DNA of 14,141 nt from a virus (Duplodnaviria > Heunggongvirae > Uroviricota > Caudoviricetes): positions 1 through 14,141 of the IMG/VR virus record IMGVR_UViG_3300033405_000012. The stretch is one strand, 5' to 3'. Every line of letters begins with the position of its first letter. Positions within the stretch are counted from its first letter, which is position 1. The notes beneath the pieces were generated by a model. That model saw only the letters and a program-made list of their open reading frames with translations, had not been told where the DNA came from and ran no database searches. Below are positions 1-10,530 of the stretch, in pieces. The translations under genes were made by a program, and so were the position numbers.

Positions 1-1073
1 ATGATTCCATATAGGCCGGCGAATCCATGTGTTGTCAGCCACCCGGAATTTGGCAGCTTGCCGCCATGCTTGGCGACGAGGCGCTTGGCGATTGCGACCC
101 ATTCCTGCGGCGTGCGTTTTTTCTTTTCCTGCGGGATGCCGGCGAAGAGCTTCGGACGCCTCCTCATGGCCTCAGAAAGGCTGGAAAAGCCGTGTGTTGT
201 CAGCCACCACGAATTTGGCAGCTTGCCGCCGTGCTTGGCGGCCAGGCGCTTGGCGATGTGGACGTGTTCCGTCACACTTTTATGCGCGCGCACCTGCACG
301 ATATGTGCAAACGTGCTGCGATTCTTTTGGATGACCGTGCAAAGCTGCCGGTGCCCGTGTTGCATGAGCCATTGATAATTGGGCAGTTTGCCGTGCTTCC
401 GTGCAAGTTGCTCGGCTTCTCGAACATATTTGGCAACGGTAGCCGCATGACGAGTTGATCGGGACGCGCGTGGCAGGTGGGCAAAGTGGTTAGGGTGGTC
501 TTTCATCGCCTCGAACAGGTTCTTCCGGCCGTGATTCGCAAGCCACCGAAAGCCTGGCACATGACCGTGAATCTTGGCTAGGCGCTCCGCGTCTTGGATA
601 TAAGCGGCCAGTAGTTCCTTTCGTCGCGGCGCTTGATGCAAGTGTGCGAAGGCACTGGGATGTTTCCGCAGGGCACGATAGATGTGTTCCTTGCCTATGC
701 GGATAAGCTGTGCAGGTAATTTGCCGCCGTTCGCTCTCGCAAGTTCTTCCGCCTCACGGACGCATTCCGCCAGGGACCGGCCGCGTTGGGGATGTTGTGG
801 AAGGTGCGCGAATGCCCCGGGATATTTCCAGAGCATGGCGGCCAGGGCTGGTTGACCGTGTTTGAGAAACCAGAAGCCTGTCGGCAGCGTACCGTGTTCC
901 CTGACGAAGTGTTCGGCGTCCTTGACATGCTCTAGCAGGCGTTTGCGGCATCGCGCCTGTGGAATGTGGGCGAATGCTTCAGGACGGCGGTTCTTGATGT
1001 CAACAAGATCACTGTAGCCATTTGCAAGAAGCCAGCTCAAAGGCGGCAATAGTCCTTTATACTTGCGTCTCAT
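1..1073 (-). CDS. Tandem ~55-aa helical-repeat protein, 3'-partial (runs off window; not in supplied ORF track)
   Basis: Manual translation from ATG 1073 gives 357 stop-free codons: MRRKYKGLLPPLSWLLANGYSDLVDIKNRRPEAFAHIPQ...RLLEHVKDAEHFVREHGTLPTGFWFLKHG...SVTEHVHIAKRLAAKHGGKLPNSWWLTTHGFSSLSEAMRRRPKLFAGIPQ...PQEWVAIAKRLVAKHGGKLPNSGWLTTHGFAGLYGI. At least 7 repeat units of 54-58 aa. Start codon uncertain (weak SD). Confidence 0.9.
   Translation of the reverse strand, partial: MRRKYKGLLPPLSWLLANGYSDLVDIKNRRPEAFAHIPQARCRKRLLEHVKDAEHFVREHGTLPTGFWFLKHGQPALAAMLWKYPGAFAHLPQHPQRGRSLAECVREAEELARANGGKLPAQLIRIGKEHIYRALRKHPSAFAHLHQAPRRKELLAAYIQDAERLAKIHGHVPGFRWLANHGRKNLFEAMKDHPNHFAHLPRASRSTRHAATVAKYVREAEQLARKHGKLPNYQWLMQHGHRQLCTVIQKNRSTFAHIVQVRAHKSVTEHVHIAKRLAAKHGGKLPNSWWLTTHGFSSLSEAMRRRPKLFAGIPQEKKKRTPQEWVAIAKRLVAKHGGKLPNSGWLTTHGFAGLYGI
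29..257. repeat. Direct repeat, 64-nt copies at 29-92 and 194-257 (period 165 nt = 55 codons)
   Basis: gtgttgtcagccacccggaatttggcagcttgccgccatgcttggcgacgaggcgcttggcgat vs gtgttgtcagccaccacgaatttggcagcttgccgccgtgcttggcggccaggcgcttggcgat; 59/64 identical. Confidence 0.95.
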
Positions 1074-1097
1074 GGCGTCGTTGTATCCACTGGCGTA

Positions 1098-1148
1098 TTG
1101 GTCGATTCGTTTCGACCAAGTGCCCGGAGGCTGGCCGGGCACTTGGTC
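1098..1148 (-). promoter_or_regulatory. Two overlapping inverted repeats (14-bp and 8-bp perfect stems), possible RNA switch or terminator
   Basis: GACCAAGTGCCCGG (1114-1127) pairs with CCGGGCACTTGGTC (1135-1148), 7-nt loop. TTGGTCGA (1098-1105) pairs with TCGACCAA (1112-1119), 6-nt loop. The two share 1114-1119. Function is inferred. Confidence 0.6.
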
Positions 1149-1163
1149 TTGAAGGTTGCGGGC

Positions 1164-1340
1164 TCACCGGGTTCTCCGTGAACGGTGTCGAAAGGCGTCC
1201 GGGCGCTTTTCGATGGCATTGGCAATTACGGGATAGTTTGCCTTCAGCCAGCTTGTGTCCTTCGGCAGCGCGATGTTGTTGGCCGCCAGGTGCTCGGCGG
1301 TGCGAACGTGCTCAGCCAGGGTTTTCGTGGAACGGGACAT
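1164..1340 (-). CDS. 58-aa protein consisting of a single copy of the ~55-aa repeat
   Basis: GGAG SD 8 nt before ATG 1340. MSRSTKTLAEHVRTAEHLAANNIALPKDTSWLKANYPVIANAIEKRPDAFRHRSRRTR matches the repeat consensus L.EHV..AE.LA...LP...WL.......A..K.P.AF.H. Confidence 0.75.
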   Translation of the reverse strand: MSRSTKTLAEHVRTAEHLAANNIALPKDTSWLKANYPVIANAIEKRPDAFRHRSRRTR

Positions 1341-1385
1341 GGTAGGAACTCCGGCGTTCCAGGTGGATGTCCGGCACAATGCCGA

Positions 1386-1630
1386 TCAGTTCTTAGGTGG
1401 AAAATGCGGGACGAAGGCGCGAACCGTGCTATTGGTAGGCACGGCGAATTCCTCAACGCCGTTCCGAAGTGCCAGGGCTTCGGCGCGGGCAATGTGCTCG
1501 TCAAGTGTTAGGGTGCTCCGGCCGAGAATCCGGCGCATGTCGGTGAAGGTGCTTGTCCCGCAGAGGCCCGAGGCCAGCGTCAGGAAGCCTTCGGACAGGT
1601 CCATTGTTTTGAGGACCTCGAAGGGGACTT
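1386..1630 (-). pseudogene. Frameshifted C-terminal continuation of the SF2 helicase
   Basis: Adding one base near 1627-1628 (GGC AAG [G]TC CCC TTC GAG) joins ...RRQRGK to VPFEVLKTMDLSEGFLTLASGLCGTSTFTDMRRILGRSTLTLDEHIARAEALALRNG...PKN* (TGA 1386-1388). This gives a ~618-aa product. Confidence 0.65.
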
Positions 1631-3241
1631 GCCGCGCTGCCGCCGGACGGTGTAAGCAAACCGTCGCCAGAGCCGTTCCCAAGTGGCCTTCCACCGTTCT
1701 TTCGGGATGCCATACTTGCTCAGCAGGCCGCGACATTGACGGTAGGCCGTCTCGTAGTCATGGTCGTGGACGGCGATGAAGAATTCTCGCTGGAATTCAA
1801 GAAAGGCGTTGCTGTCGGGGAACAGGTCGATCAACTTGTCCGAGTGGCGGTCGCGTGTGCGCCTGCTCCGTTTACACTTGGCGTCCGGTCCCGTGACGCT
1901 GATCGGCAGGAATACGTCCTCCAAGAGCATGGCCGCAAACATCACGGTAAGGATGCTGTTTTGCCGATCCTTGAAGTCCTTGCAGTTCGGCACGGCGGCC
2001 GGGAGCACCTGGTAGACTTCCGCGTGTTTCTTGCCGGGGCCGCGACGGAAGAGGCGGCCAATCATCTGAATCTTCTCGGGGATCGAGTACCGCTCGCCAA
2101 GAATGATGCAGCGCTGGGCGGAATCCCAGTCGAAACCTTCTTTGCAGGTGTCGAGCGCTAGGATGATGTCCACCTTCTTGCTCTTGTCCTCTTTGCTGCG
2201 GTCAAGGTAGTGTTTACGTGCGGCCCGGCCCTGCTCGGTCACAAGGTCAAGAATATGCAGGTGTCCGATACGAATGAGCCTCGCACCTGTCTCGGGGTCC
2301 GTGATTCGCTTGGCTGCCTTGTGGTAAAGTTGCGAAAGCTGCCGAATGATTTTTCGGACCTCCGTGTACTTGCAGGCTTCTGCATAACGGCTGTTGCGCT
2401 TGGCCAGATAGAGGATGGTGGACGCCTGCCGCCGGAAGATGCGTTTCAAGGCTTCCAGAGTGCTGCCGCAAATGACCCTGAACTCGAACGACTCGACAGG
2501 GGCGCACTCTCGAAAGTATTCCTCGTAGTCGATGTGGGCCTCCACGAATTGAGCTTCCCGCAGCGCGTCCGGGATGATGTGCCGCATGTCGCCGCGCTGG
2601 TAAGTGGCTGTGGCTAAGCCGACATGGGTGCCACGGTGGGCGGCAGCGTGCTTGACCAGTTCACCGAGCGCATTGCTGATCGTCTCGCGGCTGTTGACGA
2701 CTTGGGCGTTCATTACGTGGTGCCCTTCGTCAATCCAGACTAGCGTGTTCTTGAGCGCATCTAGTCGGTTGCTGCGCTTCAGTCGGCGATACGCTTGCGC
2801 CAGCGTGGCATGGGTACAAATGAGGATGCGGTCGGCGAGACTGATGGGCCGCCGGGTGAGAAAGCTGAGAAGCTCGTGGACCGTGTTGAGGGTGTACGGT
2901 TCACAGAGATTGTACTGTACCTCCCATCGGAGGCGTTCGGCGTGTCCCGGCACATGAAGCTGCCAGTCACGTCGGAAATTGCTGCCGATGGTGGTTTGCG
3001 GAACGGCGATAACGCAACGCAGACGTGGATCGCGCAGTAGCTTGGCCAGCGTCAGGATGCACATGGCGAGGCTCTTGCCCCACCCTGTAGGTGCTTCCAG
3101 AATCATGCAACGGGCGTCCTTGAGAACGCGGACCACCTTGTTCTGCGAATCCCGTAGCACGGGCTCGGCCGGCGGGGCGATTGGCGGGAGGGCAACACGA
3201 TCCCACCGGTGGGAAATCAGACGTTGTGTTTTCAGAGTCAT
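1580..3241 (-). CDS. Superfamily 2 (DExH-box) helicase, YeeB-like; apparent frameshift near C-terminus
   Basis: AAGGAGA SD before ATG 3241 (MTLKTQ). Walker A APTGWGKS, ILICTHATL, motif II DEGH, motif III TAT, KEGFDW, motif VI QMIGRLFR. The motifs IAVPQTTIG, YNLC, RGD, IILALDTCKEGFDW and MLLEDVFLP resemble the YeeB helicase family as I recall it (not searched). Confidence 0.9.
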   Translation of the reverse strand: MTLKTQRLISHRWDRVALPPIAPPAEPVLRDSQNKVVRVLKDARCMILEAPTGWGKSLAMCILTLAKLLRDPRLRCVIAVPQTTIGSNFRRDWQLHVPGHAERLRWEVQYNLCEPYTLNTVHELLSFLTRRPISLADRILICTHATLAQAYRRLKRSNRLDALKNTLVWIDEGHHVMNAQVVNSRETISNALGELVKHAAAHRGTHVGLATATYQRGDMRHIIPDALREAQFVEAHIDYEEYFRECAPVESFEFRVICGSTLEALKRIFRRQASTILYLAKRNSRYAEACKYTEVRKIIRQLSQLYHKAAKRITDPETGARLIRIGHLHILDLVTEQGRAARKHYLDRSKEDKSKKVDIILALDTCKEGFDWDSAQRCIILGERYSIPEKIQMIGRLFRRGPGKKHAEVYQVLPAAVPNCKDFKDRQNSILTVMFAAMLLEDVFLPISVTGPDAKCKRSRRTRDRHSDKLIDLFPDSNAFLEFQREFFIAVHDHDYETAYRQCRGLLSKYGIPKERWKATWERLWRRFAYTVRRQRGKSPSRSSKQWTCPKAS

Positions 3242-3254
3242 TTCACGTCTCCTT

Positions 3255-3273
3255 ACACTTTCCACATCAACGT
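3255..3273 (-). promoter_or_regulatory. Conserved 19-nt intergenic motif ACGTTGATGTGGAAAGTGT, copy 1
   Basis: Identical to 9494-9512. Lies immediately upstream of the helicase SD. Confidence 0.75.
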
Positions 3274-3302
3274 CCGTGTGGGCCGCCATAGGGAATCCGC
3301 GC

Positions 3303-3339
3303 AAAAAAACGCCGGCCCGGCATCGACAAGTGCCGCCGG
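3303..3339 (-). terminator. Probable Rho-independent terminator
   Basis: Minus strand CCGG-CGGCA-CTTGTCGA-TGCCG-GG-CCGG-CG-TTTTTTT: a bulged GC stem followed by T7, 36 nt after the stop of the 3375-3731 gene. Confidence 0.6.
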
Positions 3340-3374
3340 AGAGCGGGTTCAAGGGGTTGTGCGGATTGTGCGGC

Positions 3375-3731
3375 CTAGCGGCGGCGGCATCCAAGCCGTC
3401 CGTGACGGCAAGCGCAGCCGCGCCGCACCGGCCATGTCTCCATTGCCGATTCGACGGCAGCGGGCGGCCGGGCGATTTCAGCCGTCACTTCGACGGTTGC
3501 CACGCGGAAAGAAACCGGGAGCGGGGCCGCGGCAGTCGTGACGGGCGGTGGGGCCAGCGTGGGCAGGAGAGCGACGGGTGTGTCCGCGGCCCGCTCCGGG
3601 GCTGCTGATGGCTGAGGCAGGTCAGGCGGCGAGTGGTGAGCAGCCAAGACGCTCAGGGCCGCGACAAAGGCCATCAGCACAAGGAGAACAGCCCTGGCGG
3701 GCTGGAAGTTGGTGACGGCAGGCGTTCTCAT
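3375..3731 (-). CDS. Hypothetical exported/membrane-anchored protein (Pro/Ala-rich, basic Cys-containing tail)
   Basis: Hydrophobic N-terminal segment AVLLVLMAFVAALSVLAA, a Pro/Ala/Thr-rich linker and C-terminal RRGCACRHGRLGCRRR. Followed by a terminator. SD weak. Confidence 0.6.
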   Translation of the reverse strand: MRTPAVTNFQPARAVLLVLMAFVAALSVLAAHHSPPDLPQPSAAPERAADTPVALLPTLAPPPVTTAAAPLPVSFRVATVEVTAEIARPPAAVESAMETWPVRRGCACRHGRLGCRRR

Positions 3732-5328: not shown

Positions 5329-6009
5329 CTAGGACGAGTGGTTGTGGCCGGTTAGGGCCTCATTGATGAACATGGCGTCCCATGCCACGGTGCGGTCCAG
5401 GATGTAGCCGTGGGGCTCCAGGATGCGCCGCAATCGCATCAGTTCGCCGGCATCTTCGCGGTACTCCACGGTCAGGCAGCGGAAGCGGTGGGTCGGACAA
5501 CCGTAGCGGAAGAATTCTCCCAAGACTGTGACTTCGGCCCCTTCGATGTCGAGCGAGAAGTAGTCGATGACCCCTGGTGCCTTGCTGAGCGCCAGCAGGT
5601 CCGCGAGCCTGATGGTCGTGACCCAGATCTCCTCGGCACGCCGATGCTCGTGTTCCCGACGCCAGGCGTCCGGCAGGAAAGCCGTCAGGCCGCCCCACTG
5701 GCCGCCACGAGTGAATCGCACCGTGCTGTCGCTGGTGCAACTCAAGGCGCGGGTGACGTGCTGACAATTCGGCCGGTTGTCGCGGGCCCGCTTGCTCAGG
5801 TCGGGGTCTGCCTCCACCAACAGGCCGGTCCAATCGAAATGATGCTCCAAAGCCAGCGTGTTGCTGTGCTGGAAACCGTCGTTGATGCCGCACTCCACGA
5901 AATAGCCGCCGGTCAGGCCGCGAAGGGTCTCAATCACCCACTCGTCCTGCCGGGTGGCTGGCTGGGAAGCAAGCATCACGTCTCGGTTAAAGAGCCGGCG
6001 GGTTCGCAT
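5329..6009 (-). CDS. FkbM-family (Methyltransf_21-like) SAM-dependent methyltransferase
   Basis: SQ...QDEWV, GYFVECGINDG...SNTLALE...WTGLLVEAD, IDYFSLDIEGAE and LTVEY motifs. ATG 6009 overlaps the TGA of the upstream exonuclease (TGATG). Confidence 0.9.
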   Translation of the reverse strand: MRTRRLFNRDVMLASQPATRQDEWVIETLRGLTGGYFVECGINDGFQHSNTLALEHHFDWTGLLVEADPDLSKRARDNRPNCQHVTRALSCTSDSTVRFTRGGQWGGLTAFLPDAWRREHEHRRAEEIWVTTIRLADLLALSKAPGVIDYFSLDIEGAEVTVLGEFFRYGCPTHRFRCLTVEYREDAGELMRLRRILEPHGYILDRTVAWDAMFINEALTGHNHSS

Positions 6010-6719
6010 CAGTGGGGCCTCATACGCTTGATGCCCGTGCGAAGCAGTTGCACCACGGCCACGGCGTCTTCCAGGGCAGTGTGGGCGACCTTCGGGTTCA
6101 TGCCCGCCCGCTCGTAGCACGTCTTGCTGTCGGGCAGCTTTTCGTCGCCAGGCAGCCAGAAGAGCATTGCCGGGTCCAGCGTGCGGTGACTGAAGCGGAC
6201 CTTGTTCTCGAAGTCCGGCAACCGCTTGAGGAACTGCCGGTCGAAGCTGGCGAAGTTCTTGCCGGCCGGCGTGATCGACTTGGACAGGTCCCATGCGCAA
6301 CCGCCGAGCCAAGCGGCCATCTTGCCGGCTACTTCCTCCGGCAGCAGCAAGTCTTCACCCTTCTCCGGGTCGGCGAGCCGCCGCAGGGTTTCCCCATTCA
6401 GTGCGAGAGCGTATGGCTGCCCGACGATCTGCTTGTGGACCACGTAGCAGTGGAACGTCGGCAGTTCGCGTAGGGGCCGTGTCCAGTCGTCATAGACGGC
6501 ACCGATCTCAAGGATTTGGCACACGTTCGGGTCCAGGCCGGTCGTTTCGATGTCGATGCTCACGTAGGGCAGCGCCGGCTTCGGATTGGGCAGCCGTGGC
6601 TCGCTGAGGCCGTAGGCAAACTCACCCTGCCAGCCGCACGCGCACCGGGCGATGGTACAGCCCGGGTCGGTCGGGTCGAGTTGCCGTAGCGGCCATTCGC
6701 ATTCGGGGCACAACTTCAT
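6009..6719 (-). CDS. DEDDh 3'-5' exonuclease (DnaQ/RNase T-like) with N-terminal Zn ribbon
   Basis: ExoI SIDIETTG, ExoII GKNFASFD, ExoIII HTALEDA. N-terminal CPEC...CACGW. ATG 6719 has an ATGA overlap with the upstream stop. Confidence 0.92.
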   Translation of the reverse strand: MKLCPECEWPLRQLDPTDPGCTIARCACGWQGEFAYGLSEPRLPNPKPALPYVSIDIETTGLDPNVCQILEIGAVYDDWTRPLRELPTFHCYVVHKQIVGQPYALALNGETLRRLADPEKGEDLLLPEEVAGKMAAWLGGCAWDLSKSITPAGKNFASFDRQFLKRLPDFENKVRFSHRTLDPAMLFWLPGDEKLPDSKTCYERAGMNPKVAHTALEDAVAVVQLLRTGIKRMRPH

Positions 6720-7231
6720 TGGATCACCGTGTTGTGTCGGGCCAGGGTTTCGCGGACCCAATCTTCCGTGGCGTGGTGCCACGCGCCGCACGAGCAGGGG
6801 CCGACCAGCATGTCGCAAGGCTCATGGGAGGCGTTGTAGTGGTAGTCGGTCCACTCCGCAGGCCAGGGCACCATGCCGCTGGAAGCCGTTTTCAGGACGA
6901 CGGACGGCAGGGCGTGGGGCCGTCGCAAGGCCGTGAACAGTTCCACCAGCGAGTGCAAGGCGTTGCGAACCTCAGCCTTGATCCGGTGCAGGTCCATCTC
7001 TGTGGCGTTGCCGGCGTCGTAGACCTGCTCGGCGACAAGCTCTTGCCGGCACACGTCCCGAAACAACGTGAGGGCCTGGACCGCCGCCAGGACCGGGTTG
7101 AACTGGTCGCTGGGCGGCGGTGCCTTGGCCGTCTCGCCGCTGTCGCCGAACCACCCGCAGGCATCGCAGTAGCGGCAGTCATCGCCACTGTCGTCCAGGG
7201 GTGTTCCGCACTTCGGACAGAACTCAGCCAT
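6716..7231 (-). CDS. Hypothetical Zn-ribbon protein (171 aa)
   Basis: Start MAEFCPKCGTPL...CRYCDACGW. C-terminal H..C....GPCSCGAWH is a second Cys/His cluster. Overlaps both neighbours. Confidence 0.8.
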   Translation of the reverse strand: MAEFCPKCGTPLDDSGDDCRYCDACGWFGDSGETAKAPPPSDQFNPVLAAVQALTLFRDVCRQELVAEQVYDAGNATEMDLHRIKAEVRNALHSLVELFTALRRPHALPSVVLKTASSGMVPWPAEWTDYHYNASHEPCDMLVGPCSCGAWHHATEDWVRETLARHNTVIQ

Positions 7232-7526
7232 GCCGGGGATTCTTTCCGATGTTGGGGTCGCGCGGGACGTTCTTGAACGCGGCGTTGAACTCCCGGACGG
7301 CACGCTCCGCTTCCTTGTCGCCGAACCGCTTCTTGATCTGAGCCAGGATGCTGGTGGCCTTGCTGGTGGGCGTATTGTGACGGCTCATTTGCAGCTTGAG
7401 GGTTTCCCGCAGGGCGTCCAGTTGGGCGTCGGTGCCGTACTGGTTGCCCTCTTTCGGGTTGCCGACCAGCGAGCGCGAGGCGGCGTTCTTCGCCAGCGGT
7501 AGTTGTCTGACTCGTGGGCGCGCCAT
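7224..7526 (-). CDS. Small basic hypothetical protein, paralog 1
   Basis: AGGTGA SD. Clear similarity to 7530-7859 (QLPL, LVGN, LRE.LK.Q, QI...FG.KE..RA.REFN..F, RDP). Confidence 0.85.
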   Translation of the reverse strand: MARPRVRQLPLAKNAASRSLVGNPKEGNQYGTDAQLDALRETLKLQMSRHNTPTSKATSILAQIKKRFGDKEAERAVREFNAAFKNVPRDPNIGKNPRHG

Positions 7527-7529
7527 TGC

Positions 7530-7859
7530 TCACCTGCCTTTCGGTCCGCTGGCGGGGAGCGTTCTGGTCGGCGGACGCCGGCCTTCTTCGGGATCACGCT
7601 CGATGCCGCGGAAAGTGAGGTTGAACTCCCGGATGGCCCGTTGAAGTTCCTTCTGGCCGTACTGCGTCCTGATCTGGTCCATGACGGCCTGGGCCTTCTT
7701 GCCGGCGGCGCGCCGGCTTTGGGCCTTGAGGCTCTCGCGCAGCTTGGCGAGTTCCACCTTGCCGCGGTCCTTCTGGTTGCCCACCAGCTTGTTTTGGGCG
7801 CGAACCTGGGCGGCCATCATCGCGGTCAGGGGCAGTTGTTTCGCTTGTGCTCTCGGCAT
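7530..7859 (-). CDS. Small basic hypothetical protein, paralog 2
   Basis: GAGGTGA SD. Paralogous to 7224-7526. Confidence 0.85.
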   Translation of the reverse strand: MPRAQAKQLPLTAMMAAQVRAQNKLVGNQKDRGKVELAKLRESLKAQSRRAAGKKAQAVMDQIRTQYGQKELQRAIREFNLTFRGIERDPEEGRRPPTRTLPASGPKGR

Positions 7860-9493: not shown

Positions 9494-9512
9494 ACACTTT
9501 CCACATCAACGT
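9494..9512 (-). promoter_or_regulatory. Conserved 19-nt intergenic motif ACGTTGATGTGGAAAGTGT, copy 2
   Basis: Identical to 3255-3273. The match extends to 22/24 nt (acactttccacatcaacgtYcgYg). Intergenic, between the stop at 9525 and the SD of the 9458 gene. Confidence 0.75.
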
Positions 9513-9780: not shown

Positions 9781-10530
9781 TCAGCCTTGCCAAACGGCAC
9801 GGTGAGGGTAGTTGATCGGGGCCAGGCCGTTTTCGGCGGCGATCCGAAGGCAATACTCCCGGTCCAGCTCGATCAGGGTGCAGGGGAGATTGATGCGTTT
9901 ACACACACGGAGCGTGGTCCCGGTGCCGGCGAAGGGGTCCAAAACCGTGCCGGCCGGCGGGGTAGTCAGCTTCAGGCAGCGCTCGACCAGGCCCTCATTC
10001 AGTTGGGTCGGGTGCCAGGTGCGACGCTGCTTGCTGTTGCCCACGACGCGGGTGAAGTCGAACACGTCGCCGGGCACCCGGCCTCGCGGGTCTGCTCGCT
10101 TGTCGCCGTTCTCTTGCCGCCATGACGGCACGCGGATGGCGTCGGGGAAGAGCGGCGCGTCGTGCCAGCGGAGCCGCCAGAGCGGCCGGTGGTTGTTGCC
10201 CAGGTCATGGTGGTTGTGCTGGCCGAAGGTGTAGGTCTGGACACAGGGCTTGACTTCCAGGCCGCGAAGCCGCTCCAACATGCCGGCCACGATGCGGCCG
10301 GTCTCGAAGGTCCACCGGGCGTTGAACGACAACCAGACGGTCTTGGCCTTGTAGATGAAGTGATGGAGCCACTCGCCGAGCAAGCCGAGGTACTTGTCGT
10401 CCGGCAGCTTGTCCCGGTAGGTGGCATAGTCCAGGCCGAGGTTGTCCGGCGGGTCCGCGAAGATCGTGTCCACGGGCTCCAGGCTTGGGAGCACTTCCAG
10501 GCAGTCGCCGCTGTAGAGGTGGTAGTTCAT
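9781..10530 (-). CDS. Beta-class N6A/N4C DNA methyltransferase-like protein with non-canonical DPPD motif IV
   Basis: GDCLEVL, IFADPPDN (codons GAC CCG CCG GAC), HPTQ and C-terminal motif I VLDPFAGTGTT. The IV-TRD-I order indicates beta class. Confidence 0.9.
   Translation of the reverse strand: MNYHLYSGDCLEVLPSLEPVDTIFADPPDNLGLDYATYRDKLPDDKYLGLLGEWLHHFIYKAKTVWLSFNARWTFETGRIVAGMLERLRGLEVKPCVQTYTFGQHNHHDLGNNHRPLWRLRWHDAPLFPDAIRVPSWRQENGDKRADPRGRVPGDVFDFTRVVGNSKQRRTWHPTQLNEGLVERCLKLTTPPAGTVLDPFAGTGTTLRVCKRINLPCTLIELDREYCLRIAAENGLAPINYPHRAVWQG

What the first reader, a model, noticed from the sequence alone, without database searches (positions are those of the whole stretch)
1..3273. Candidate system: YeeB-like SF2 helicase + single-repeat protein + multi-repeat protein
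Seen: a co-oriented block with its own upstream terminator (3303-3339), conserved motif and SD. The helicase's frameshifted tail ends in the first half of the same repeat (TLDEHIARAEALALRNG vs SLAECVREAEELARANG), tying all three genes together. Established (from recall): YeeB-type helicases usually sit between an MmeI-like MTase (yeeA) and a GIY-YIG/T5orf172 protein (yeeC) in defence loci. Neither partner is visible here. Inference: the helicase has been re-partnered with a repeat-based targeting module, possibly a new defence, counter-defence or DNA-targeting system on a mobile element.
Basis: partly seen in the sequence, partly recalled or inferred. Interest (0 to 1): 0.8.

Follow-up and report, generated by a model that had tools for sequence, protein, structure and literature searches.

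The report
Phage helicase with detachable DNA-binding repeat arm
A prophage of planctomycete bacteria carries a conserved operon in which a YeeB-type helicase works with an array of new 55-residue helical repeats (fused to it in some phages, split off in others) and a small methyltransferase-like protein; the unit is real and undescribed, but its job is not yet known.

Summary
On the minus strand lie an SF2 helicase, a 58-aa single-repeat gene and a multi-repeat gene, behind a terminator-like hairpin, a 19-nt motif and a strong Shine-Dalgarno site.

Corrections:
- The window is the cut end of a prophage. The multi-repeat gene runs off position 1 (435 aa in full).
- It is followed by a conserved 191-aa methyltransferase-fold protein (p191), an excisionase-like gene and an integrase.
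- The helicase "frameshift" is a 10-bp deletion private to this assembly. Four other contigs encode an intact 621-aa protein.

"YeeB-like" is supported. The helicase core is 30% identical to Bacteroides helicases named yeeB that sit between an MmeI-like methylase and a T5orf172 gene.

Linkage to the repeats is very strong:
- All eight distinct close loci have helicase, repeats and p191 in that order.
- 20 of 23 long repeat proteins carry this helicase family.
- Fused and split forms interleave on the tree. Split helicases always keep the orphan first helix of a repeat.

The repeat matches no Pfam model. It resembles HA and HNH_repeat DNA-binding modules only in architecture.

A defence role is not supported. 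The operon has no nuclease, is coupled to the excisionase gene, and shares its motif with phage DNA-metabolism operons. This scan had noted YeeABC and HA-array helicases on other DNA, but not this repeat family.

The parts
3299..3324 (-). Terminator-like hairpin (stem 3324-3308) plus T-run. It separates the upstream 118-aa ORF from the helicase operon.
   Evidence: pattern scan; sequence
3255..3273 (-). 19-nt motif ACGTTGATGTGGAAAGTGT directly before the Shine-Dalgarno site. It is one of five copies in the phage piece, all in gene orientation. The others lie at 9494, 18285, 32377 and 32459 in genome coordinates.
   Evidence: Genes behind the other copies include a DNA ligase-like protein and a second DNA helicase.
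3239..3254 (-). Shine-Dalgarno AAGGAG (3254-3249) and the helicase start codon ATG (3241-3239).
   Evidence: This start gives the 621-aa product called on four other contigs.
1386..3241 (-). YeeB-clade SF2 (DExH) helicase gene. In this window it is broken by a 10-bp deletion between 1633 and 1632, so the frame stops at TGA 1582-1580 (553 aa). The intact allele (621 aa) ends at TGA 1388-1386.
1452..1517 (-). Orphan first helix of a repeat (HMM positions 4-21) at the C-terminus of the intact helicase. The equivalent segment ends every split-form helicase of the family.
1164..1340 (-). 58-aa gene encoding exactly one complete repeat (pI 11.3). A 60-aa counterpart is kept in the closest relative, L016.
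1..1073 (-). First 357 codons of the 435-aa multi-repeat gene (P0001). It has an N-terminal repeat lacking its first helix, then 7 full repeats, and pI 11.4. The window start cuts the gene. Repeat units lie at 951-1076, 786-950, 624-785, 459-623, 285-449, 120-287 and 3-122.

Best explanation
This is one functional unit of a temperate planctomycete phage. It consists of a YeeB-clade SF2 helicase or translocase, a nucleic-acid-binding arm built from roughly 55-residue helical repeats, and a small class-I methyltransferase-fold protein (p191).

SHOWN
- The genes are translationally coupled through ATGA overlaps.
- They are co-inherited in every close relative examined.
- Helicase and repeat array are one polypeptide in many relatives.
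- Split helicases always retain the first helix of a repeat, and the array protein starts with a repeat lacking that helix.
- The helicase ATPase motifs are intact.
- The array is extremely basic.
- The operon carries the same upstream motif as phage ligase and helicase operons, and it runs into the excisionase-like gene.

INFERRED
- The array binds DNA. Its variable positions (23-25, 28-29, 33, 36-37 of the unit) would set the preference of each module.
- The array loads or holds the motor on DNA, either covalently or by docking of the helicase's orphan helix onto the headless first repeat.
- The unit acts on DNA early in the lytic cycle.
- The most likely activity is motor-assisted modification of DNA by p191, giving protection from host restriction. 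This specific activity is the weakest step.

The 10-bp deletion in this window is a variant or an assembly error, not part of the design.
For: Linkage:
- Loci anchored independently on p191 all show helicase (52-55% identity), then repeats (37-43%), then p191 (63-71%).
- Loci L015 and L016 show the same order.
- A distant version occurs in L005 and in Tunturiibacter phage Tunturi_5 gp100-gp98.

Fusion:
- L009 and L011 encode an 849-aa fused protein.
- At least 9 fused forms occur among close homologues.
- 20 of 23 repeat proteins of 700 aa or more carry this helicase family. Pfam finds a helicase in 9 of 9 tested.
- The fused or split state changes at least 7 times on well-supported branches.

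Split point:
- It is conserved. The helicase C-terminus keeps invariant A, E, A and N of helix 1.
- Array proteins start with the MK.K..G.LP pattern.

Other evidence:
- A same-clade helicase (P0107) carries classical HA domains in the same position.
- Array pI is 11.4.
- p191 has a methyltransferase fold, with TM 0.66-0.76.
- The motif is shared with ligase and helicase operons.
- The cassette lies next to an integrase in all loci, and p191 overlaps the HTH_17 gene.
Against: - No assay or structure shows that the repeat binds DNA.
- Sequence and profile tests against HA and HNH_repeat were negative or weak.
- Fold searches with one repeat gave only Z of 3.2 or less.
- p191 matches no methyltransferase HMM and has an atypical glycine loop, so it may not be catalytic.
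- Second array proteins in L006 and L008 also start headless without an orphan helix upstream. This weakens the docking idea.
- A position next to the integrase also fits accessory or defence cargo.
- YeeB relatives belong to a cluster with anti-phage activity in Vibrio (PMC9973331, citing 10.1101/2021.05.05.442762).
Confidence: 0.45

Rival explanations
1. The cassette is a prophage-encoded anti-phage system derived from YeeABC. The repeat array replaces the target-recognition part of the MmeI-like methylase, p191 marks self DNA, and the helicase senses or clears unmodified invader DNA, perhaps with a host nuclease.
For: - The helicase belongs to the YeeB clade.
- YeeAB protects Vibrio crassostreae from some phages (PMC9973331).
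- The cassette sits at the prophage end beside the integrase.
- Repeat arrays evolve faster than their neighbours.
- One relative (P0018) joins an Mrr-type nuclease and an SF2 helicase to the same repeats.
- HEPN and Schlafen-type genes lie near the cassette in L003.
Against: - No nuclease or other effector is present in any of the eight close cassettes.
- PADLOC gives only partial hits to PbeA and Csf4.
- The operon is coupled to the excisionase-like gene and shares its motif with replication-type operons. This suggests expression in the lytic cycle.
- The pair also occurs in a 309-kb jumbo phage among ordinary phage genes.
- The helicase core of P0018 is barely related to this one.
Confidence: 0.2
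2. The repeat array is not a DNA reader. It is an RNA-binding or protein-scaffolding arm, for example recruiting the helicase to transcripts or to a replication or packaging complex.
For: - Whole-chain fold hits are to helical-repeat RNA binders such as PPR proteins, though at poor scores.
- SF2 helicases act on RNA as well as DNA.
- There is no significant match to any DNA-binding domain.
Against: - The model is beads on a string (pTM 0.38), not a solenoid.
- The repeats share polypeptides with homing-endonuclease HNH_repeat arrays.
- AlphaFold DB neighbours include HNH, LAGLIDADG and HA-domain proteins.
- The clade's other tails are HA domains. An HA domain has been reported to bind DNA (Mills 2013, PMC3637686, as cited in PMC12191111; I did not read that paper).
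Confidence: 0.12
3. In this phage the three ORFs are the decaying remains of one fused helicase-repeat gene, or are rejoined by recoding. All three are in one frame, separated by two TGA codons, and there is a frame break as well.
For: - Tail, 58-aa ORF and array ORF share one frame, with single TGA codons at 1388-1386 and 1166-1164.
- This copy has a 10-bp deletion.
- The L008 helicase is also broken.
- The deepest branches of the family are fused.
Against: - Four other contigs of the same phage have an intact helicase.
- The closest relative, L016, keeps the small ORF and the array ORF but separates them with TAA, and its helicase is in another frame.
- The array start (MK.K..G.LP) is conserved across split homologues.
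- Three ORFs share a frame by chance about 1 time in 9.
Confidence: 0.07

Closest known systems
DnmA(YeeA)-YeeB-YeeC cluster (B. subtilis; homologues in Vibrio crassostreae and Bacteroides)
   Same: - The helicase core is homologous: 30% identity, pairwise E 1e-41, to Bacteroides helicases that JGI names yeeB.
- Both are tight operons on an integrase-bearing element.
- A methyltransferase-type protein is a constant partner in both.
   Different: - Here there is no MmeI-like methylase and no T5orf172/GIY-YIG protein.
- The partners are instead a repeat array and a 191-aa methyltransferase-fold protein placed downstream.
- The host element is a tailed phage.
- I did not compare directly with B. 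subtilis YeeB.
Helicase-associated (HA, PF03457) domain helicases, for example B. vulgatus BVU_0683 (Mills 2013, PMC3637686, cited in PMC12191111)
   Same: - Both have an SF2 helicase followed by a C-terminal array of small helical modules of about 55-65 residues.
- A helicase of the same clade (P0107) carries 5 HA units where this family carries its repeats.
- AlphaFold DB neighbours of the array model include HA-domain proteins.
   Different: - None of 56 repeats matches PF03457.
- The unit length and signature differ (E.V..AE.LA..NGG.LP...WL..NGY..L......P..FAHI.Q).
- The array is often a separate polypeptide.
Homing endonuclease associated repeat (HNH_repeat, PF18780)
   Same: - Both have a 55-residue period and begin with a helix, then G-x-x-P, then two helices.
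- Both repeat types occur in one polypeptide in P0155 and P0182.
- The ESM Atlas places the array nearest HNH_repeat clusters.
   Different: - There is no HMM match.
- Profile-profile comparison gave E 0.026 and probability 2%, over the first 26 columns only.
- The partner enzyme here is a helicase, not an HNH nuclease.
Tunturiibacter phage Tunturi_5 gp100-gp99-gp98 (PP885688)
   Same: - It is the only hit among 50,697 deposited phage records.
- It has a homologous helicase (23% identity, E 1e-17) followed by two proteins made of the same repeat.
   Different: - It is a 309-kb jumbo phage of Acidobacteriota.
- It has no p191 and no adjacent integrase.
- The repeat proteins are annotated only as 'DNA helicase'.

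Membership tests
YeeB-type helicase (YeeA/DnmA-YeeB-YeeC cluster) | SF2 DExH helicase core with intact ATPase motifs | tested here: met
   DEAD, ResIII and Helicase_C domains. Motifs I APTGWGKS, II DEGH, III TAT and VI QMIGRLFR.
YeeB-type helicase (YeeA/DnmA-YeeB-YeeC cluster) | Sequence homology to helicases that sit in MmeI-like / T5orf172 operons | tested here: met
   P0086 (JGI name yeeB) is 30% identical over residues 29-446. Database E is 3e-32 and pairwise E is 1e-41. Its operon context was verified in L012. B. subtilis YeeB itself was not compared.
YeeB-type helicase (YeeA/DnmA-YeeB-YeeC cluster) | MmeI-like N6-adenine methylase (YeeA/DnmA) immediately upstream | tested here: not met
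   Absent from the window, from the 10-kb flanks of the longer contigs, and from all eight close loci.
YeeB-type helicase (YeeA/DnmA-YeeB-YeeC cluster) | T5orf172/GIY-YIG protein (YeeC) immediately downstream | tested here: not met
   The downstream genes are repeat proteins and p191.
HA-domain helicases (PF03457) | Match of the C-terminal modules to the HA profile | tested here: not met
   No PF03457 hit for the whole proteins or for any of 56 single repeats at E up to 10.
HA-domain helicases (PF03457) | Fold of one module like the solved HA domain | tested here: inconclusive
   The single-repeat model has pLDDT 74. PDB Foldseek gave nothing and VIA-align gave Z of 3.2 or less. The whole-array model hits HA-domain proteins in AlphaFold DB at E 6e-3 to 2e-2.
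HNH_repeat (PF18780) | Profile match to PF18780 | tested here: inconclusive
   No hmmscan hit. hhalign gave E 0.026 and probability 2%. Both repeat types are found in the same polypeptides, P0155 and P0182.
Known anti-phage defence systems (PADLOC-DB v2) | Full-length match of the components to a described system, with an effector present | tested here: not met
   Only partial hits: PbeA C-terminal part at 1e-12 and the Csf4 P-loop region. The repeat proteins give no meaningful hit: nothing for the tail and the 58-aa ORF, and only a weak Cas12c match (E 0.0018, 14 bits) for the array. No nuclease or other effector lies in the cassette. DefenseFinder was not available.
Class I SAM-dependent methyltransferases (for p191, just outside the window) | Rossmann-type methyltransferase fold | tested here: met
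   The Atlas's own model aligns over residues 1-191 to Methyltransf_11/25 clusters at TM 0.66-0.76.
Class I SAM-dependent methyltransferases (for p191, just outside the window) | Profile match and canonical SAM-binding glycine loop | tested here: inconclusive
   No Pfam hit. A weak PDB profile hit to methyltransferase 9KO3 (E 0.25) covers the motif I to III region. The glycine loop is atypical.

The most novel reading that the evidence does not exclude
The repeat array is a modular DNA reader. Each 55-residue unit recognises a few base pairs through its hypervariable positions (23-25, 28-29, 33, 36-37). Phages exchange, split and re-fuse arrays to retarget a helicase-methyltransferase machine. 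The split forms are held together by trans-complementation of one repeat: the helicase donates helix 1 and the array protein supplies the rest. This would be a new kind of programmable, motor-coupled DNA-marking system and a new protein-docking principle.
Probability: 0.12. Interest if true: 0.85.

Novelty: new variant of a known kind. Interest (0 to 1): 0.58.

Why it matters
**An uncatalogued repeat family.** It has 915 clusters at 50% identity in a 1.8-billion-protein library and no Pfam model. Among the long members tested it is fused almost only to one clade of SF2 helicases. It therefore behaves like the poorly understood HA domain and could help explain what such arrays do.

**A new context for YeeB.** YeeB-type helicases are the unexplained motor of a widespread methylase-helicase-nuclease cluster. 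Here the same motor sits in a phage with different partners, which gives a second context for asking what it needs.

**A natural experiment in domain splitting.** The conserved cut inside a repeat, with both halves under selection and repeated switching between fused and split states, is directly testable by pull-down and structure.

**Practical annotation points.** The deposited "DNA helicase" labels on Tunturi_5 gp98 and gp99 describe repeat proteins, not helicases. Gene callers miss or shorten array genes, as in L016.

Tried and rejected
- **Circular junction.** I first joined the contig ends, which made the array frame run more than 300 codons into a terminase gene. I rejected this. P0001 from longer contigs shows the window start simply cuts the gene, and the 78.8-kb "genome" is an excised piece of a prophage.
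- **DNA search of phages.** blastn of 1-3400 against the phage collection found no match.
- **Back-translation from the array alignment.** The search for related loci failed because no stretch was conserved enough. I used p191 as the anchor instead.
- **Fold searches.** Whole array against PDB gave only poor helical-repeat rows. Single repeat against PDB Foldseek gave nothing. VIA-align wide gave Z of 3.2 or less.
- **Complex prediction.** Complex prediction on the helicase C-terminus with the array N-terminus returned no verdict (score 0.21, mark 0.32). It counts neither for nor against docking.
- **Pfam artefacts.** Hits such as APP_Cu_bd, ZipA_C and FtsA on repeat proteins have no qualifying single stretch, so I treated them as repeat-summing artefacts.
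- **TGA readthrough or selenocysteine idea.** This was weakened because L016 uses TAA and a different helicase frame.
- **Tandem Repeats Finder.** It found no DNA-level tandem repeat in 1-1800. The units are old and diverged.
- **Bacteroides YeeB and YeeC.** The YeeB C-terminus and YeeC N-terminus both show a "helix, then G-x-x-PS" element by eye, but BLAST and the repeat HMM give nothing significant.


Full report
**1. What the window is.** The assembly that holds the window is one 78,792-bp contig at 63% G+C, with genes almost all on the minus strand.
- It is a piece cut out of a prophage. The protein running off the window start is found whole (P0001, 435 aa) on five other contigs, one of 141.6 kb.
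- On those contigs the order is: helicase (621 aa), 58-aa ORF, P0001, a 191-aa ORF (p191), a 135-aa HTH_17 excisionase-like protein, a convergent tyrosine integrase, then cellular genes.
- Related loci come from Planctomycetaceae and Thermoguttaceae MAGs, so the host is a planctomycete.
- My first attempt to close the contig into a circle was wrong and is withdrawn.

**2. Check of the observation.**
- A hairpin with a T-run lies at 3324-3299.
- A 19-nt motif lies at 3255-3273, followed directly by AAGGAG and ATG 3241.
- The helicase has DEAD, ResIII and Helicase_C domains and intact motifs I, II, III and VI.
- Contig L002 is identical to the window over 5932 bp, except that the window lacks 10 bp between 1633 and 1632. 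That deletion causes the frameshift.
- The intact protein reads through to TGA 1388-1386.

**3. The repeat.** I built a 56-position HMM from the units.
- P0001 has one unit lacking its first helix (HMM 17-55) and seven complete units.
- The 58-aa ORF is exactly one unit (E 5e-19).
- The helicase tail carries only the first helix (HMM 4-21).
- No other copy exists in the 78.8-kb piece, and there is no DNA-level tandem repeat.
- AlphaFold2 models each unit confidently as a 14-residue helix, a G-G-x-L-P turn, then three short helices. The units are strung like beads (pLDDT 86, pTM 0.38).
- The array is very basic, with pI 11.4 and 87 K+R against 27 D+E.
- Across 115 units the invariant scaffold is A10, L13, A14, G19, L21, P22, L27, L35, P43 and F46. 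The most variable positions are 8-9, 20, 23-25, 28-29, 33 and 36-37.
- No unit matches any Pfam model.

**4.
- Using p191 as an independent anchor, every locus recovered has helicase, then repeat protein(s), then p191. These are L003 (same as L010), L006, L007, L008 and L009 (same as L011).
- Two further loci reached through helicase homologues show the same order (L015 and L016).
- Identities are 52-78% for the helicase, 37-43% for the arrays and 61-71% for p191, so the arrays diverge fastest.
- Junctions are ATGA overlaps.
- In all loci a tyrosine integrase is nearby.
- More distant pairs of helicase plus repeat protein occur in L005 and in Tunturiibacter jumbo phage Tunturi_5 gp100-gp98. 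Tunturi_5 is the only hit among 50,697 phage records.

**5. Fusion and fission.**
- Among close helicase homologues, 27 end with the orphan first helix (typical ending ...TLEEWV..AE.LA..N......AA-stop).
- At least nine are 726-951 aa, with 3-7 full repeats starting at the same residue. L009 and L011 are fused as well.
- In a search of 1.84 billion representatives the repeat profile found 915 clusters.
- Of the 23 listed members of 700 aa or more, 20 contain a helicase homologous to this one. Pfam finds a helicase in 9 of 9 tested.
- On a helicase-core tree rooted with a Bacteroides YeeB-like protein, the deepest branches are fused. The state changes at least 7 times on well-supported branches, and 10 times by parsimony. 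Recombination between phages may account for part of this.
- Comparison of the junctions shows that split forms carry about 12 extra codons, holding the stop and the start, in the loop between helix 1 and the L-P turn.
- Both halves of the cut repeat are conserved. I therefore infer that they still form one module in trans. The single complex prediction gave no verdict.
- Second array genes in L006 and L008 begin headless without a donor helix, which argues for caution.

**6. Family of the helicase.**
- The nearest named relatives are Bacteroides DEAD/DEAH helicases, one of which JGI names yeeB.
- Pairwise identity is 30% over residues 29-446, E 1e-41.
- That gene lies between an 898-aa MmeI-like methylase and a 402-aa T5orf172 protein beside an integrase.
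- Per PMC9973331, the dnmA-yeeB-yeeC cluster is conserved, gives no protection in B. subtilis, and affects phage sensitivity in Vibrio crassostreae.
- Another clade member, P0107, carries five classical HA domains at its C-terminus. Tails built from small helical modules are thus a theme of the clade, and this repeat is a new version of such a tail.
- P0155 and P0182 combine true HNH_repeat units with these repeats. A profile-profile test, however, is not significant.

**7. The third partner.**
- p191 has no Pfam, PHROG or significant PDB sequence hit.
- The Atlas model aligns end to end with class-I methyltransferases at TM 0.66-0.76.
- The weak PDB alignment covers the motif I to III region of a methyltransferase.

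**8. When the operon is likely expressed.**
- The 19-nt motif occurs five times, always in gene orientation.
- The other copies precede a 79-aa gene, a DNA ligase-like gene, and the region before a second DNA helicase that matches phrog_62.
- The stop codon of p191 overlaps the start of the excisionase-like gene.
- Both facts suggest expression with the phage's DNA-metabolism genes after induction, not in the resting lysogen. This is an inference. No expression data were available.

**9. Reading.**
- The unit most likely acts as a DNA motor with a detachable or fused DNA-binding arm and a coupled methyltransferase-type enzyme, used by the phage on DNA during lytic growth.
- A protective DNA-marking role is my best specific guess.
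- A YeeABC-like immunity role is the main rival. It lacks an effector here and fits the regulatory context less well.
- Earlier notes of this scan describe YeeB helicases whose C-terminal module recurs at the start of the next gene product. The same pattern appears here with a different module. I could see only a faint likeness in the Bacteroides pair.

Noticed in passing
window 3255-3273 and 9494-9512; genome 18285-18303, 32377-32395, 32459-32477 (all minus strand): A 19-nt motif (.CGTTGATGTGGAAAGTGT) lies 0-40 nt before start regions of the helicase cassette, a 79-aa gene, a DNA ligase-like gene, and the region upstream of a second helicase matching phrog_62. It is probably a phage-specific regulatory site for DNA-metabolism operons. 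It sits too close to the start codon to be an ordinary promoter at the helicase.
   Followed up: partly
window 1632/1633: The window has a 10-bp deletion (GCTTGAAGCT missing) relative to L002, which is otherwise 100% identical. It truncates the helicase to 553 aa. Whether it is a real variant or an assembly error is unknown.
   Followed up: partly
genome 77357-78792 (minus strand), far end of the same contig: A GpA-type large terminase ORF is cut at its N-terminus by the contig end. Together with the cut array gene at position 1, this shows that both ends of the deposited piece are artificial.
   Followed up: partly
L008:3054-4777: The orthologous helicase in IMG/VR contig 3300037067_011169 is also split into two overlapping ORFs (441 and 160 aa). 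Frame breaks recur in assemblies of this gene.
   Followed up: no
L016:8067-9566: In the closest relative the array frame is open for 499 codons (8.7 repeats), but the gene caller reported only a 238-aa product. Array genes are easily mis-called. The small single-repeat ORF and the array ORF are again in one frame, there separated by TAA.
   Followed up: partly
L001 (Tunturiibacter phage Tunturi_5, PP885688) 5803-7658: gp99 and gp98 are annotated 'DNA helicase' but consist of 5 and 3 copies of this repeat, with no helicase domain. The true helicase is gp100.
   Followed up: yes
L003:5160-6253, L007:2716-3923, L015:6099-7891: In three loci the cassette is preceded by a sigma-70/ECF-like gene, followed by DUF4326 in L003 and L007 or a ThyX thymidylate synthase in L015. 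This may be an early operon led by a phage sigma factor.
   Followed up: no
P0155 and P0182 (database proteins): These proteins join canonical HNH_repeat (PF18780) units to units of the new repeat in one chain, without any recognisable catalytic domain.
   Followed up: partly
window 6009-6818 and 9781-10530 (minus strand): Neighbouring early-region genes include a DNA polymerase exonuclease-subunit-like protein (phrog_192). At 9781-10530, by position in the longer contigs, lies an N6/N4 DNA methyltransferase. The phage therefore already carries a conventional methylase besides p191.
   Followed up: partly
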